IMG/VR virus record: IMGVR_UViG_2541047936_000008
Coordinates: 1-24,775 of that record
Source: a virus
Taxonomy: Duplodnaviria; Heunggongvirae; Uroviricota; Caudoviricetes
Strand: one strand, 5' to 3'
DNA length: 24,775 bases
In this document: piece after piece, positions 6,001-12,000 of the stretch
Layout: every line of letters begins with the position of its first letter
How positions within the stretch are numbered: position 1 is the first letter of the stretch
Position numbers: made by a program

Positions 6001-9000
6001 ATGCTGTCACCGATATTTTTAGTAGCACCATCTCCCATAAACCTGCTGGTCTGGGTTGGCTCGCGATCAATCATGGTGGCAAAGGAAGAATTCCCGCCAA
6101 CACCATCTCTCAGTTTTCTGGCGTTAGACCGCCGGATGTCATGGACTGTTTTCATAACGAAATTAAAACCTTTGTACCGATAGGGTACAAGTATCTTGAG
6201 GGTTCATCTCAATCATGTAATATGTATATCGGAGGTACATATTGTATGAAAGCGTATTGGGACTCTTTAACCAAAGAACAGCAGGGCGAGTTGGCCGGAA
6301 AAGTTGGCTCAACACCAGGCTACTTACGGCTAGTTTTCAATGGTTATAAAAAAGCCAGTTTTGTGCTGGCTAAAAAACTTGAGCAATGCACGTCAGGTGC
6401 AATTACGAAATCTGACTTAAGACCGGATATCTATCCGAAAGATTAACAGAACACCTTCAATTTTTAACCACAGAACGATGAGGCTAACCGTGGGTAAGCA
6501 TCACTGGAAAGTAGAAAAACAGCCTGAGTGGTACGTGAAAGCTGTCAGAAAAACTATCGCGGCGTTGCCGGGGGGTTACGCTGAAGCTGCTGAGTGGCTG
6601 GATGTAACAGAGAACGCTTTATTCAACCGCCTTCGTGCAGATGGCGATCAGATTTTCCCGCTGGGATGGGCAATGATTTTACAGCGCGCGGCTGGCACTC
6701 ACTACATTGCGGATGCTGTCGCACAGTCTGCTGGTGGGGTGTTTGTATCGCTTCCTGAAATTGAGGAAGTAGAGAACGCCGATATAAACCAGCGCCTGCT
6801 GGAAGTCATCGAACAGATCGGGAGTTACTCAAAGCAGATTCGTTCGGCAATCGAAGATGGGGTAGTGGAGCCACACGAGCAGACAGCAATTAATGATGAG
6901 TTGTATCTGTCAATTTCGAAGCTCCAGGAGCATGCAGCACTGGTCTACAAAATCTTTTGCGCTCCAGAAAAGAGTGACGCCCGCGAGTGTGCAGCTCCGG
7001 GCGTCGTGGCGTTTTGTGTCTGTGGAGAAACTAACGCATGAACAGTTTAACGGCAAATAACCGTTTGTCGCAACAGCTGGTGGTCAGCGTCGCTGAACAC
7101 CTGTTGTTACGGCATGAATGCAGATTACCAAATCACCTGGCTGTAAGTAACCACAGAGAACTTTACCTGACTGTGGGGGGCGAGTTGTGCAGGAACTTAA
7201 CCGCTGGTTTCGTGACGGAAGAGGACTTTATGTTCATGTTATTCGTTGGGAGCCAGAAACACAGCGCGTTATCTATCTTCGCAAAGACTACCCGCATGAG
7301 TGCTTTAGTCCTTTGTGGAAATTCAGGCGTGATTTTGTTGAGTGTGAAGGACCACCAGCACATTGATTCTGCCATTCCGGGACGTTACACTGTTCAGGCA
7401 CCTTATAAAGCGGGTGCCGGGATTGGCGTCCTGGAATTGATCAAGGCGATATATGACGCGCCAGCGTCTTTTTTATCGTCCGCATTTGCTCACATCAAAG
7501 TTATGGTGGGCTGGGCGGGGGCATCGAAAGATGCGCCGGTTTCCTTGATCACCGGTTACGCCAACCCCGTTCAGTTCACCACCAGCGAAATTGGCGTTTC
7601 CGGTGGTGGAAGTATTTCACCGATCAAGGAGGCTGCCATCATGGCTACTGTCCCAGCCCTCACTCGTCTGAATGATGAAGACTTACATAAACTCAGTTAT
7701 GTAACAACTGCACTACGTGCTCTGCGCAAGGTAACTCTTTCGGATCCGCAGGCACATCAGGTTCTGGTAGAAACCCTTCTTAACTTGCAAGCTGAACGTA
7801 TTCGTCTGGCGGATAAGGCTAATTTTCATATTCACCGTCTCCTGAATATCAGCGGAGGGCATCGTCATGCTTAATCCGTTGCTCCTCAACATTTACCGTT
7901 TATTTCAGCGTAAAAAAATATCAACACCCACAGTTGGGCAGTGGTACACCACGCCAGCAGGGCATGTTCTACGTGTCAGCCTGGTTGACTGTGAATGTCA
8001 GAAGGTGATTTGTGAACCGCTGGGCCGCAATTACCGCGTCAGTATGCCGCTTATTGCCTTTCGCTCCGGAAAAAACATGAAGCATCTCGGAGGTGCAGCA
8101 TGAGTATGGAGCTGATGGTTAAAGCGATGAAAATTCGAGTGGGTAATCCATTGCGAAAACTGGTTCTGATCAAGCTGGCTGATAATGCCAGCGATCAGGG
8201 TGAGTGCTGGCCCAGCTACCAGCATATTGCTGACCAGTGCGAGATTAGCAAACGTTCTGTGATGAATCATATTGCGGCCCTTTGTGATTCCGGGCTGGTA
8301 AAAAAAGTCACCCGGAAAGGTGAAAAAGGTAACTCAAGTAATATCTATCTCCTTCATCTTGATGGTGCAGGAGATTCACTAGGGGGTAGTGCAAATAATT
8401 CACTATCTAGTGCAGCAAATTCACCAGGTAGTGCAGGAGTTGCACCAGGGGGTGGTGCAGGAGATTCACCCAGAACCAGTCACTCTTTTGAACCAGTCAA
8501 AGAACCAGTCAATGAACCAATAGCTGTTGGTGCATCTGCTGATGAGTCCGTGCGAGTTCGTTCAAACCGACCGGAATACTCTCCGGAGTTTGAGCAGGCA
8601 TGGCTGGCATACCCCAAACGTGCTGGTGGCAATTCAAAATCTGCAGCCCTCAAAGCCTGGAAAGCTCGTTTGAATGAGGGGGTAAAACCCGAAACCATGC
8701 TGGAAGGTGTGAAACGCTACGCGGGCTGGGTATCTGCGATGGGTAACAGCGGCACACAATTTGTGAAACAGGCTGTCACGTTCTTTGGTCCGGATCGTCA
8801 TTTCGAAGAATCCTGGGAAGTTCCTGCGGTATCTGCAGCCAGACGCGAGGACCCGTACTTCAAAGCCAGTTACGACAACGTGGACTACAGCCAGATCCCG
8901 GCAGGATTCAGGGGGTGATCATGAGTCTTTTGAATGACGTTCAGAAATTCATTGAAGCCCATCCGGGGTGTACTTCCGGAGACATTGCGGATGCTTTTGC

Positions 9001-12000
9001 AGGTTACTCACGGCAGCGCGTTCTGCAGTCAGCAAGCAAGTTACGTCAGAGTGGTCGTGTGGCTCACCGTTGTGAAGGGGATACACGCAGACATTTCCCG
9101 CGCCTGACCAGTTTAACCAGCAGCACATTACCCTGGCGGGATACGAAAAAGAGACCCAGACGCCTGCCGACGAGCTGGTGGCAAGCCGTACCGCCCGCGC
9201 AGCGGTGTTTATTCGCAACGATCCGGCACGTCCCACGCAGACCGGTGAGCTGGTGGGTATGCTGCCTGCGCCGAAGGGGAAACGGTTCACGATGACCGAA
9301 CAACAGACCCTGCTGTCTCATGGCGTGGCAACGGCGTATGTCGAAAGCGGGGTGCTGCGCATTCAGCGTGATGTCACCACGTACAGGAAAAACGCTTACG
9401 GTGTTGCGGATAACAGCTACCTCGACAGCGAGACGCTGCATACCAGCGCGTATGTGCTGCGCAAACTGAAATCCGTCATTACCAGTAAGTACGGGCGTCA
9501 CAAGCTTGCCAGCGACGGTACCCGCTTTGGTCCCGGTCAGGCGATTGTCACACCGGCGGTGATCAAAGGGGAACTGCTGGCAACCTACCGTCAGCTTGAG
9601 CGTGCGGGGATCGTGGAAAACTACGAACTGTTTAAGCAGTACCTGGTTGTGGAGCGTGATGCCAGCGATCCGAACCGCCTGAACACGCTGTTCCCGCCTG
9701 ACTATGTTAACCAGTTGCGTGTCTTTGCCGTGGTTAACCAGTTCCGTCTTCAGTATTCAGAGGAGTCCGCATAATGGCCCGTATCGGGGGAACCTGTTAT
9801 TTCAAAATTGACGGTCAGCAGCTATCGCTGACCGGCGGCATTGAGGTGCCCATGAACAGGACGGTCAATGATGACATCATCGGCCTGGACGGTTCAGTGG
9901 ACCGCAAGGAAACTCACCGTGCGCCTTATGTTAAAGGGACCTTCAAGGTGCCGAAGAATTTTCCGGTGAGCAAAATCACCTCGTCTGATGAGATGACCAT
10001 CACTGCCGAGCTGGCGAACGGTCAGGTCTATGTACTGTCGTCTGCCTGGCTGCACGGCGAAGCAAACCATAATGCCGAAGAAGGGACGGTTGATCTTGAG
10101 TTCCACGGTGAAGAAGGGGATTACCAGTAATGAAAGAGCTTGAGTTAAAGAAACCGATTACCGCTCATGGCGAGACACTCTCCGTACTGGAGTTTGATGA
10201 GCCCACCGGGAAAGATGTCCGCGAGCTGGGGTATCCCTACCAGATGAATCAGGATGAGTCCGTCAGACTTCTGGCGCATGTGGTGTCGAAATACATTGTG
10301 CGGCTGGCGAAAGTGCCGCAAAGCTCTGTCGACCAGATGTCTCCGGCAGACCTGAATGCAGCGGCGTGGCTTGTGGCTGGTTTTTTCCTCCAGGCCTGAC
10401 GGCTGAATACCTCACTGATCGCTTCTTTGACTGCGCCAGCTACTGGCGCATTAATCCCTTCGAATTGCTGAATATGCCGATCAGTGAAATTCCCTTGCTG
10501 GTCAGTCAGGCAAACAGGATAGAGCAGGAGAAACGCACACATGGCTGAATTTGAGCTTAAGGCGTTGATCACCGGTGTCGACAGGCTTTCTCCCGCGCTG
10601 TCGAAAATGCAAAAGAAAATCCGGGGATTTAAACGCCAGGCGGAAGAAGCGTCACAGGGTGGGCTGGCGCTTGGTGGAGGACTGGCAGCGGGGCTGACGC
10701 TTTCCCTGAAATCTTATGCCGATCAGGAAAACGCCGCTACCGGGCTGAAAGTCGCCATGATGGATGCGAACGGCGAGGTTGGAAAGAGCTTTCAGGACAT
10801 CAATAAACTGGCTATTGGCCTGGGTAACCAGCTACCCGGTACAACGGCTGATTTCCAGAACATGATGCAGATGCTGGTGCGTCAGGGGATCCCGGCAGAA
10901 AACATTCTGGGTGGTGTGGGTAAAGCGACAGCTTATCTTGCGGTACAACTGAAAAAAACACCGGAAGCGGCTGCTGAGTTTGCTGCAAAGATGCAGGATG
11001 CTACCGGAACGGCGTCAGAAGACATGATGGGGCTGTTCGACACTATCCAGAAGGCGTTTTATCTGGGCGTTGACGATACCAACATGTTGTCCTTCTTCAC
11101 TAAAACCAGTTCTGTTCTGAAGATGGTGAACAAGGACGGTCTTCAGGCTGCACAGAGCCTTGCCCCCATCAGCGTCATGATGGATCAGATGGGGATGAAC
11201 GGGGAGTCGGCAGGTAATGCCCTGCGAAAAGTTATCCAGTCCGGATTAAGCGTTAAGAAAATCAGGGACGTCAATAAAGTCATGGCCCGCCAGAGACTCG
11301 GGGTACAGCTCGATTTTACTGACGGCAAAGGAAGTTTTGGCGGTCTTGATAACATGTTCAGGCAACTGGCAAAGCTGCGAAAACTGACCGACGTTAAGCG
11401 AACAGGTGTACTTAAGGCAATATTTGGTGATGATGCCGAAACCCTTCAGGTGGTCAATGCACTAATCGATAAAGGAAAGGATGGCTACGATCAGATCCAG
11501 CAGAAGATGAATAAACAGGCCAGCCTGAATAAACGTGTTCAGGCACAGCTTGGTACGCTGTCCAACCTGTGGGAGGCAATGACGGGGACCGCAACTAACG
11601 GCCTTGCGGCTATTGGCGGCGCATTTTCTGGTGACGCCAAAAATATCACGCAATGGCTGGGGGAGTTGGGGGAAAAATTCACGAAGTTTGCGGATGAAAA
11701 TCCCCGGGTTATTCGCGGCGTCGTCGGGCTTGCTGCCGGTCTTGCGATTCTGAAACTGGGATTGATGGGCGTGGGCAGTGCCATCAGTATTGTCAGCAGG
11801 ATTATGTCGATGACGCCGATTGGCATGATTGCGACGGCGATTGCTCTGGCTGCGGGATTAATTATCACTAACTGGGATGTTGTCGGACCTTATTTCAAGA
11901 AGCTCTGGGAAACCATTGGTCCTTATTTTGAGGCAGGTTGGGAACTTCTGAAGAAGGTTTTTGCCTGGTCGCCGCTGGGGATGGTGATCAATAACTGGGG

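What the first reader, a model, noticed from the sequence alone, without database searches (positions are those of the whole stretch)
8921..9200. Deletion junction fusing the early region to the 3' part of the tail sheath gene
After the replication gene, a small ORF begins normally and then degenerates into Arg/Pro-rich sequence, while a different frame opens at 9076 and reads like a sheath C-terminus ending just before the tube gene. Everything expected between replication and sheath (late regulator, lysis, terminase, portal, head, sheath N-terminus) is absent. This implies a single large deletion and explains why the element is cryptic. The tail and baseplate genes downstream are intact, which is unexpected if they are under no selection.
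Basis: partly seen in the sequence, partly recalled or inferred. Interest (0 to 1): 0.5.

Follow-up and report, generated by a model that had tools for sequence, protein, structure and literature searches.

The report
Recent deletion crippling an SfV-like prophage
A virus resting in the dusA gene of E. coli strain UMEA 3317-1 lost about 16-18 kb in one recent deletion, which removed its late regulator, lysis, packaging and head genes and half its tail sheath gene; this is an ordinary way for such viruses to become defective.

Summary
The window is identical to E. coli UMEA 3317-1 scaffold KE702337.1. It holds a whole dusA-integrated, SfV-like prophage (attL 1068-1174, attR 23359-23465, about 22.3 kb).

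The junction lies at 9105-9108, on a 4-bp microhomology (TGAC), not at 9076. To its left are the first 64 codons of yfdN, a PerC-family gene. To its right are the last 222 of 498 codons of the tail sheath gene, in another frame.

Intact relatives carry both arms in one prophage, 16.4 kb (F719, at dusA) or 18.5 kb (20A24, at thrW) apart. The missing DNA holds RusA, KilA-N, Q, lysis, HNH, terminase, portal, protease, capsid, connector and tail terminator genes.

None of 5,426 complete E. coli genomes has this junction. The baseplate block differs from the intact F719 prophage by 4 nt in about 5.5 kb. The deletion is therefore young, and intact tail genes need no selection to explain them.

One thing seen in passing remains unexplained. 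Independent deletions in related prophages repeatedly end within about 110 bp of the same sheath gene, and at least four end within the same 4 nt.

The parts
1068..1174 (+). attL: displaced original 5' fragment of dusA
   Evidence: It forms an imperfect direct repeat with 23359-23465: 83% identity by BLAST to the equivalent F719 segment, and 86% mean column identity in the wider 141-column alignment. FG31-1 has the same arrangement, annotated 'tRNA-dihydrouridine synthase, partial'. It matches the dusA-island architecture of PMC4482086.
5481..6155 (-). CI-like repressor (LexA family, Peptidase_S24), intact
   Evidence: 224-aa gene call with PF00717; annotated ymfK/LexA family in 20A24.
6246..7874 (+). 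Start of the early-right operon: Cro/YdaS-like, CII-like (Phage_CP76, YmfL) and Ash
   Evidence: Pfam.
8100..8918 (+). Replication-initiator-like gene (HTH_36, weak DnaD_N), intact
   Evidence: Pfam. 100% identical to the 20A24 gene. Annotated as replication protein in phages 2H10 and Ayreon.
8915..9108 (+). yfdN' : first 64 codons of a 164-codon PerC-family gene; the left arm of the deletion ends here
   Evidence: 100% identical to L001 20901-21109. Full-length YfdN has its PerC domain at residues 100-154, which is lost here.
9105..9108 (.). Deletion junction: 4-bp microhomology TGAC shared by both parents
   Evidence: Three-way alignment and BLAST end points.
8915..9295 (+). Chimeric ORF: 64 aa of YfdN plus 62 aa of sheath DNA read out of frame (the Arg/Pro-rich tail)
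   Evidence: Translations. This exact protein is absent from the 15-billion-protein collection.
9105..9774 (+). 'sheath: last 670 nt of a 1,497-nt tail sheath gene (residues 277-498 of 498), with no native start
   Evidence: 97.6-99.7% identical to the 3' ends of intact sheath genes. Pfam gives a partial sheath_1 domain plus sheath_1C.
9774..10399 (+). Tail tube gene and tail assembly chaperone gene, intact
   Evidence: Pfam Tail_tube and Phage_TAC_7. Full length, no stops, 97.8-99.6% identical to relatives.
10541..12373 (+). Tape measure gene, intact
   Evidence: Pfam PhageMin_Tail. Full length and 98.9% identical to L003.
13057..18054 (+). DNA-circularization protein, baseplate gpP-like, gp45, gp46, gp47/J and gp48/YmfQ genes, all intact
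   Evidence: Pfam. 99.8-100% identical to the intact F719 prophage, with no stops or gaps. Collinear with phages SKA5, SfI, SfII and SfV.
18058..20795 (+). Tail fibre gene, invertible fibre/chaperone segment (crossover sites 18342-18361 and 20156-20175) and Pin-type invertase gene (20193-20795)
   Evidence: Inverted repeat AAACCTTGGTTTGGGAGAAG / CTTCTCCCAAACCAACGTTT. Resolvase plus HTH_7 domains.
22176..23273 (-). Tyrosine integrase gene next to dusA, intact
   Evidence: Pfam Phage_integrase. 100% identical to the F719 integrase gene.
23359..23465 (+). attR: the 5' end of dusA supplied by the prophage (dusA CDS 23362-24399)
   Evidence: Alignment with attL; RefSeq annotation of F719.

Best explanation
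The window holds a complete but defective prophage of the SfV/e14 type, with a lambdoid early region and a Mu-type contractile tail, inserted in the 5' end of dusA in E. coli UMEA 3317-1.

One illegitimate recombination event joined codon 64 of yfdN to codon 277 of the tail sheath gene at a 4-bp microhomology (TGAC). It removed about 16.4-18.5 kb. The lost DNA held the rest of yfdN, a LexA-family regulator, RusA, KilA-N, DUF968, the Q antiterminator, holin, endolysin, spanin, HNH, both terminase subunits, portal, protease, major capsid, connector and tail-terminator genes, and the first 276 sheath codons.

Shown here: the junction, both parents, the deleted content, and the youth of the event.

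Inferred consequences:
- The element can make no heads, no functional sheath and no lysis, so it yields no virions.
- The repressor, the early operon, the replication gene, the integrase and both att sites look intact, so immunity probably persists and excision may too.
- The tube, tape-measure and baseplate genes have lost Q and the late promoter. They now sit directly behind the early-right operon, so SOS induction may transcribe them by read-through.
- The joining mechanism is inferred to be repair of a break at short homology, that is, E. coli illegitimate recombination or microhomology-mediated end joining.
For: - **Breakpoint.** The left arm matches L001 at 100% up to 9108 and the right arm from 9105; the shared bases are TGAC.
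- **Both arms in one intact prophage.** They lie in the same order and strand in 20A24 (L001) and in F719 at dusA itself (L003). The interval is 18,490 bp and 16,384 bp respectively.
- **Truncated domains.** Sheath and YfdN are both cut within or before their domains.
- **Whole element in view.** attL and attR are both present and no head or terminase gene remains.
- **The junction is real.** The GenBank scaffold and a separately assembled Logan contig (SRR958739) are both identical across it.
- **The event is young.** No complete genome among 5,426 spans it. The chimeric ORF is not in the protein collection. The sheath-fragment ORF occurs only in this assembly and the Logan contig. Window 12517-18054 differs from F719 by 4 nt, and the integrase and invertase genes are identical.
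- **Family assignment.** The tail block is collinear with, and 97.6-98.6% identical to, the sequenced phages SKA5, SfI, SfII and SfV.
- **Read-through is possible.** No strong + strand terminator was predicted between 7468 and 11298.
- **The pattern is the usual one.** Lysis, terminase and portal genes are preferentially lost, and tail-fibre and integrase genes enriched, in incomplete prophages (PMC7744054). Illegitimate recombination in E. coli resembles microhomology-mediated end joining (PMC11372144).
Against: - No parent that is identical on both arms was found. F719 is 98.2% identical on the left arm and 98.3-99.4% on the right, and 20A24 is 100% on the left but sits at thrW. The exact deletion size and any further small differences are therefore estimates.
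- The Logan contig may come from the same read set as the GenBank assembly. It excludes a scaffolding artefact but not a clonal laboratory variant.
- Expression, excision and immunity are inferred and were not tested.
- A 4-bp microhomology does not separate end joining from replication slippage.
Confidence: 0.9

Rival explanations
1. The junction is an assembly or scaffolding chimera that joins two different prophages of the same genome.
For: E. coli genomes often carry several SfV/e14-like prophages. Relatives of the window showed up to 18 places per genome. The left arm is 100% identical to a prophage that sits at thrW in another strain.
Against: An independently built Logan contig spans the junction with no mismatches. 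The join is clean with 4-bp microhomology and no Ns. The host flanks on both sides (DUF2713 gene and attL on the left; integrase gene, dusA and pspG on the right) are those of a single dusA insertion, as in F719 and FG31-1. F719 has the same yfdN-type early region at dusA.
Confidence: 0.03
2. The tail module is a domesticated, tailocin-like or otherwise selected remnant. The deletion was retained because the host uses the tube and baseplate genes.
For: All twelve tail genes downstream are intact, and pN/pS against relatives is 0.03-0.09. Tail genes are enriched in incomplete prophages (PMC7744054). Other strains also keep tail blocks after deletions.
Against: The sheath gene is truncated, so no contractile particle can form. 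Q, the late promoter and the lysis genes are gone. The allele is in none of 5,426 complete genomes. The block is almost identical to an intact prophage (4 nt in 5.5 kb), so the low pN/pS reflects the history of the functional phage. The other remnants keep different subsets of tail genes.
Confidence: 0.04
3. The deletion did not start at a random break. It was seeded by site-specific cleavage at a GGTGACC heptamer in a break-prone part of the sheath gene (a restriction enzyme of the BstEII type, a gyrase site or another nuclease), and the end was then joined at microhomology.
For: The sheath-side breakpoint sits on GGTGACC in the parental allele. Five other sheath breakpoints in four other strains lie on GGTGACC 9-108 bp upstream. 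In strain 41 the retained 98-bp piece runs from one site to the next. A 321-bp probe over this region has 17 partially matching records, against 0 and 1 for the flanking probes.
Against: The hot position is site 1, 106 bp from the window's junction. The probe over sites 2-3 shows only 1 partial record. Two further GGTGACC sites at L003 16488 and 16557 show none. AH62 has sheath breakpoints that are not on the motif. TGAC is also simply the microhomology that was used. No nuclease has been identified.
Confidence: 0.25

Closest known systems
Shigella/E. coli phages SfV, SfI, SfII, SfIV and Escherichia phage SKA5
   Same: The sheath 3' end, tube, chaperone, tape measure, DNA-circularization and baseplate genes are collinear and 97.6-98.6% identical over window 9105-18000. 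Intact E. coli relatives have the same lambdoid-early, HK97-type-head, Mu-type-tail layout.
   Different: Those are complete phages of 37-41 kb. Here 16-18 kb of late genes is missing. From my own knowledge, SfV integrates at thrW next to proA, whereas this element sits in dusA with a different integrase. None of those phages matched the window's left arm; it is closest to phages 2H10 and Ayreon.
Intact dusA prophage of E. coli F719 (NZ_OY754392.1) and the deleted dusA prophage of FG31-1 (NZ_CP142680.1)
   Same: Same integration site and the same integrase gene (100% identical in F719). F719 carries the same yfdN-type gene and FG31-1 a cut remnant of it. Both share the window's tail block.
   Different: F719 is complete. 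FG31-1 carries a different, independent deletion (holin' joined to 'sheath at L003 16893) and a second small deletion in yfdN.
e14 cryptic prophage of E. coli K-12
   Same: It belongs to the same phage type, as shown by the ymfK, ymfT, ymfL, ymfR, ymfQ, stfP, tfaE and pinE gene names applied to relatives. From my own knowledge, it is also defective through internal deletions while keeping its baseplate, fibre and invertase end.
   Different: From my own knowledge, e14 sits in icd, has several deletions and no sheath or tube genes, and is widespread. The junction here is single, young and strain-specific.
dusA-specific integrase islands and prophages (Farrugia et al. 2015, PMC4482086)
   Same: The insertion is in the 5' end of dusA. 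The element supplies a new 5' end and a displaced remnant lies at the far end. The att repeats are imperfect and the integrase gene lies next to dusA.
   Different: Membership of the integrase in that family was not tested by phylogeny here.
Illegitimate recombination / microhomology-mediated end joining in E. coli (PMC11372144)
   Same: A large deletion with a few bases of homology at the joint, and no IS element or recombinase site.
   Different: The pathway genes cannot be inferred from sequence. One end lies in a region that looks break-prone.

Membership tests
Contractile tail sheath protein (Pfam domII + Phage_sheath_1 + Phage_sheath_1C) | Full domain set with an N-terminal region (about 498 aa in this clade) | tested here: not met
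   The window product covers only profile positions 74-168 of sheath_1 plus 1C. The full relative has domII at 96-196, sheath_1 at 206-368 and 1C at 377-489. Residues 1-276 are missing.
PerC family regulator (YfdN) | PerC domain (PF06069) | tested here: not met
   The domain lies at residues 100-154 of the 164-aa relative. The window keeps residues 1-64 and gives no Pfam hit.
SfV-like temperate myophage | Mu-type tail module collinear with SfV | tested here: met
   97.6-98.6% nucleotide identity over 8.9 kb to SfV, SfI, SfII and SKA5.
SfV-like temperate myophage | HK97-type terminase, portal, protease and capsid module, and a lysis cassette | tested here: not met
   Absent from the whole attL-attR interval. 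Present in the intact relatives L001, L002 and L003. The element is therefore a deletion derivative, not a functional member.
dusA-specific integrase elements (PMC4482086) | [quoted passage not shown] | tested here: met
   A roughly 107-nt repeat at 1068-1174 and 23359-23465. The integrase gene lies directly upstream of dusA and is transcribed in the opposite direction.
dusA-specific integrase elements (PMC4482086) | Integrase belongs to the DAI clade | not tested
   Only Pfam Phage_integrase was scored.
R-type tailocin | Complete sheath, tube and baseplate genes with their own regulator and lysis genes, conserved at a fixed locus across strains | tested here: not met
   The sheath gene is truncated. 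There are no lysis genes or Q. The junction is in 0 of 5,426 genomes.
Microhomology-mediated illegitimate deletion | A few bases of shared sequence at the joint, and no IS element or recombinase site | tested here: met
   TGAC is shared by both parents. There is no IS at the joint. The Pin crossover sites lie at 18342 and 20156 and are unlike the junction.
Microhomology-mediated illegitimate deletion | Dependence on break resection and ligase, rather than replication slippage | not testable with these tools
   This needs genetics.

The most novel reading that the evidence does not exclude
The sheath gene of SfV-like prophages holds a narrow break-prone spot (ACGCTGGTG^ACCGAG, with two more GGTGACC heptamers within 110 bp). 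Independent deletions repeatedly start or end there, and the window's deletion is one of them. If so, a sequence-specific nick or cut (a nuclease, a gyrase site or a restriction system), and not random decay, would be a recurring cause of inactivation in this widespread prophage family.
Probability: 0.2. Interest if true: 0.45.

Novelty: new member of a known kind. Interest (0 to 1): 0.2.

Why it matters
On its own, little. It is a clean, datable example of how a temperate phage becomes defective in one step. The step removes exactly the gene classes that are known to be lost first. It leaves immunity, integration and tail genes behind.

It also shows that intact genes in a remnant are not evidence of selection when the deletion is young.

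The side observation could matter more. If prophage decay in E. coli is channelled through a specific break-prone site in the sheath gene, that mechanism would be testable, and it would apply to a prophage family present in about a fifth of complete E. coli genomes.

Tried and rejected
1. **Complete short sheath-like family.** Rejected by the partial Pfam domain and by 98-99% identity to the 3' end of 1,497-nt genes.
2. **Pin invertase acting at a pseudo-site.** The real crossover sites (AAACCTTGGTTT..., 18342 and 20156) bear no likeness to the junction or to the sheath hot spot. The Ec-RL2-1X junction in the fibre gene is not at a crossover site either.
3. **RecBCD/Chi control of the end points.** The Chi sites on the + strand (window 9174 and 9249, and many in the deleted part) are oriented to protect the side that was lost, not the side that was kept.
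4. **Hairpin or cruciform at the hot spot.** Only a 7-8 bp stem forms, and the fold is no better than shuffles (z -0.67 and -0.11).
5. **Plain BstEII-type (GGTNACC) restriction.** Weakened: two GGTGACC sites 340-400 bp upstream have no truncated records.
6. **dN/dS as a test of selection after the deletion.** It was computed, but it reflects divergence among functional phages. Only 4 substitutions separate the window from the nearest intact prophage in the baseplate block.
7. **Look-ups that failed.** The exact-protein look-up of the chimeric ORF found nothing. The e14 paper of Mehta et al. is not held in the library.
8. **Listing every truncated allele.** I could not do this. The search tool shows at most 60 of about 1,100 records, so only counts and six examples were obtained.

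
Full report
**What the sequence shows.** An ORF that starts at GTG 8915 or ATG 8921 reads like a normal small protein for about 64 codons. It then becomes Arg/Pro/Trp-rich and stops at 9295. A second frame is open from 9076 and ends at 9772-9774, overlapping the ATG of the next gene by one base.

Pfam assigns that second product to Phage_sheath_1, profile positions 74-168 of 168 only, plus a complete Phage_sheath_1C. It assigns the next genes to Tail_tube, Phage_TAC_7 and PhageMin_Tail. 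The gene upstream (8100-8918) is HTH_36 with a weak DnaD_N match.

**Origin of the window.** The 198-aa ORF at 9178-9774 is EQY82158.1 of E. coli UMEA 3317-1. The window is identical, with no mismatches over the 19.8 kb compared, to scaffold KE702337.1 of GCA_000461215.1. It is also identical to a separately assembled Logan contig of run SRR958739 that spans the junction. A scaffolding artefact is therefore unlikely.

**Placing the breakpoint.** I ran megablast of 8000-10200 against 5,426 complete E. coli genomes.
- No genome spans the junction.
- Thousands of records match either the left half, ending at window 9104-9108, or the right half, starting at 9105.
- The left half is annotated as a helix-turn-helix protein plus yfdN (PerC family). 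The right half is annotated as tail sheath, tube and assembly protein.

Direct comparison gives the exact joint. The left parent (L001 20901-21109) matches 100% up to window 9108. The right parent (L001 from 39596) matches from 9105. The four shared bases are TGAC. The junction is therefore 9105-9108. Position 9076 is only the first sense codon after a stop in the sheath frame.

- yfdN keeps codons 1-64 of 164 and loses its PerC domain at residues 100-154.
- The sheath gene keeps residues 277-498 of 498 and loses domII and half of the sheath_1 domain.
- The two genes are joined out of frame, which produces the Arg/Pro-rich tail.

**One deletion in one prophage.** E. coli 20A24 carries an intact prophage at thrW with this gene order: integrase, yfdT, yfdR, yfdQ, yfdP, repressor, cro, ymfL, ash, the replication gene, yfdN, a LexA-like regulator, RusA, KilA-N, DUF968, Q, lysis genes, HNH, terminase, portal, protease, capsid, connectors, tail terminator, DUF2635, sheath and tube. 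The two breakpoints lie 18,490 bp apart in it; that interval includes an IS3 copy.

Isolate F719 carries the same layout in dusA itself, with the breakpoints 16,384 bp apart.

The window contains the whole element:
- attL at 1068-1174, a displaced dusA 5' fragment;
- attR at 23359-23465, the start of dusA;
- the two form an imperfect direct repeat, which is the architecture described for dusA-specific elements (PMC4482086).

Between the att sites there are no terminase, portal, capsid, lysis or Q genes. The remnant is about 22.3 kb. Adding 16.4 kb gives about 38.7 kb, within the 37-41 kb range of SfV, SfI and SfII.

**Family.** Window 9105-18000 is collinear with, and 97.6-98.6% identical to, the sequenced phages SKA5, SfI, SfII, SfV and SfIV. 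The early region is 97% identical to phages 2H10 and Ayreon. RefSeq uses e14 gene names (ymfK, ymfT, ymfL, ymfR, ymfQ, pinE) for the relatives.

**Are the intact tail genes surprising?** No. All genes from tube to gp48 are full length, without stops or gaps.
- From 12517 to 18054 the window differs from the intact F719 prophage by 4 nt in about 5.5 kb.
- The integrase and invertase genes are 100% identical to those of F719.
- The junction is absent from all 5,426 complete genomes.
- The chimeric ORF is absent from a 15-billion-protein collection.

The deletion is recent, so no inactivating mutations are expected yet. The pooled pN/pS of 0.03-0.09 against relatives reflects evolution in functional phages, not selection after the deletion.

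The content lost (lysis, terminase, portal, head) and the content kept (integrase, tail, fibres) follow the general pattern for incomplete prophages (PMC7744054).

**Mechanism and consequences.**
- *Shown:* a single joint with 4-bp microhomology, and no IS element or recombinase site there. The Pin crossover sites are at 18342 and 20156.
- *Inferred mechanism:* illegitimate recombination by joining of a break at short homology, which in E. coli resembles microhomology-mediated end joining (PMC11372144).
- *Inferred loss of function:* no virions, no lysis and no functional sheath.
- *Inferred retained function:* the repressor, integrase and att sites look intact, so immunity probably persists and excision may too.
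- *Inferred expression:* the tail genes have lost Q and the late promoter and now follow the early-right operon directly. No strong + strand terminator was predicted between 7468 and 11298, so SOS-induced read-through is plausible.

**Side observation: a break-prone spot in the sheath gene.** While looking for relatives I found other decayed prophages with deletion end points in the same small part of the sheath gene. Coordinates below are those of L003.

| Strain (locus) | Integration site | Junction | Sheath end point |
|---|---|---|---|
| FG31-1 (L004) | dusA | holin' joined to 'sheath | 16893 |
| strain 41 (L007) | thrW | yfdR', then sheath 16895-16992, then 'baseplate | 16895 and 16992 |
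| Ec-RL2-1X (L008) | not determined | sheath' joined to the tail fibre gene | 16895 |
| CH468 (L010) | thrW-type (thrW itself lies outside the fetched stretch) | in-frame 357-bp internal deletion, 16896 to 17254 | 16896 |
| this window | dusA | yfdN' joined to 'sheath | 17001 |

All six sheath-side end points fall on GGTGACC heptamers at 16893, 16989 and 16999.

Counts of complete-genome records with only partial coverage of a probe:

| Probe (L003 coordinates) | Partial records / records matched |
|---|---|
| 16300-16620 | 0 / 1082 |
| 16790-17110 | 17 / 1088 |
| 16836-16956 | 13 / 1084 |
| 16935-17060 | 1 / 1073 |
| 17330-17650 | 1 / 1084 |

There is a real concentration of end points at 16893-16896, with at least four independent alleles. 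The window's junction lies 106 bp away, on a third copy of the heptamer.

Against a simple restriction-site explanation:
- two other GGTGACC sites (16488, 16557) have no truncated records;
- AH62 has sheath breakpoints off the motif, at 16236 and 16863.

Pin sites, Chi orientation and hairpins do not explain the spot. I leave it unexplained. I give about 0.25 to the view that the window's deletion was seeded by site-specific cleavage.

**Verdict.** The finding is correct and well explained. It is a young, strain-specific, microhomology-mediated deletion of 16-18 kb that turned an SfV-like dusA prophage into a defective one. It is a new instance of a well-known kind and of low general interest. 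The recurrent sheath-gene end point is the only feature worth following up.

Noticed in passing
L003 16836-17006 (equivalent to the sheath DNA just upstream of and at window 9105); L004 21492; L007 9001 and 9097; L008 7445; L010 5061: Independent deletions in SfV-like prophages of at least four other strains end within the same 4 nt of the sheath gene (ACGCTGGTG^ACCGAG). Two more end points, including the window's, lie on further GGTGACC copies within 110 bp. 17 of 1,088 records are truncated in this 321-bp stretch, against 0-1 in flanking stretches. The cause is unknown.
   Followed up: partly
L004 21257-22269 (E. coli FG31-1, dusA prophage): A second dusA prophage carries a different deletion that joins a holin 5' fragment to the last 777 nt of the sheath gene. 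It also has a separate small deletion that cuts yfdN at the equivalent of window 8998. Loss of the head and lysis block with retention of the tail block has therefore happened at least twice at this locus.
   Followed up: partly
L010 4339-5478 (E. coli CH468): This sheath gene has an in-frame 357-bp (119-codon) internal deletion. RefSeq annotates it as an ordinary protein (WP_069067270.1), although it sits in a heavily decayed thrW-type prophage.
   Followed up: no
window 18342-20795: Invertible tail-fibre host-range segment. The 20-nt inverted crossover sites are at 18342-18361 and 20156-20175. Opposed fibre-chaperone genes lie between them, and a Pin-type serine invertase gene (Resolvase + HTH_7) is at 20193-20795.
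   Followed up: partly
window 20822-22114 (- strand): Cargo lies between the invertase and integrase genes: a DUF4145 protein (20822-21517) and a DinI-like protein (21866-22114). The same pair is present in the intact F719 prophage. FG31-1 has the DinI-like gene but lacks the DUF4145 gene.
   Followed up: no
window 1319-1855 and 2591-3424: Two ORFs near attL (178 aa on the + strand; 260-277 aa on the - strand) have no Pfam match. At the first position FG31-1 carries a Panacea-domain protein instead, so this prophage end looks like a variable cargo slot.
   Followed up: no
window 9160-9181 and 9235-9256: A 22-nt imperfect direct repeat has both copies ending in a Chi octamer (GCTGGTGG, at 9174 and 9249). 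Both lie on the + strand, 69 and 144 nt to the right of the junction inside the retained sheath fragment.
   Followed up: partly
window 12517-12966: A 149-aa ORF with a TTG start and no Pfam match lies between the tape measure and DNA-circularization genes. It is 100% identical in F719, but BLAST found no match in YZ22MPE54 (L002) or FG31-1 (L004); FG31-1 carries a different hypothetical gene at that spot. It may be a moron.
   Followed up: no
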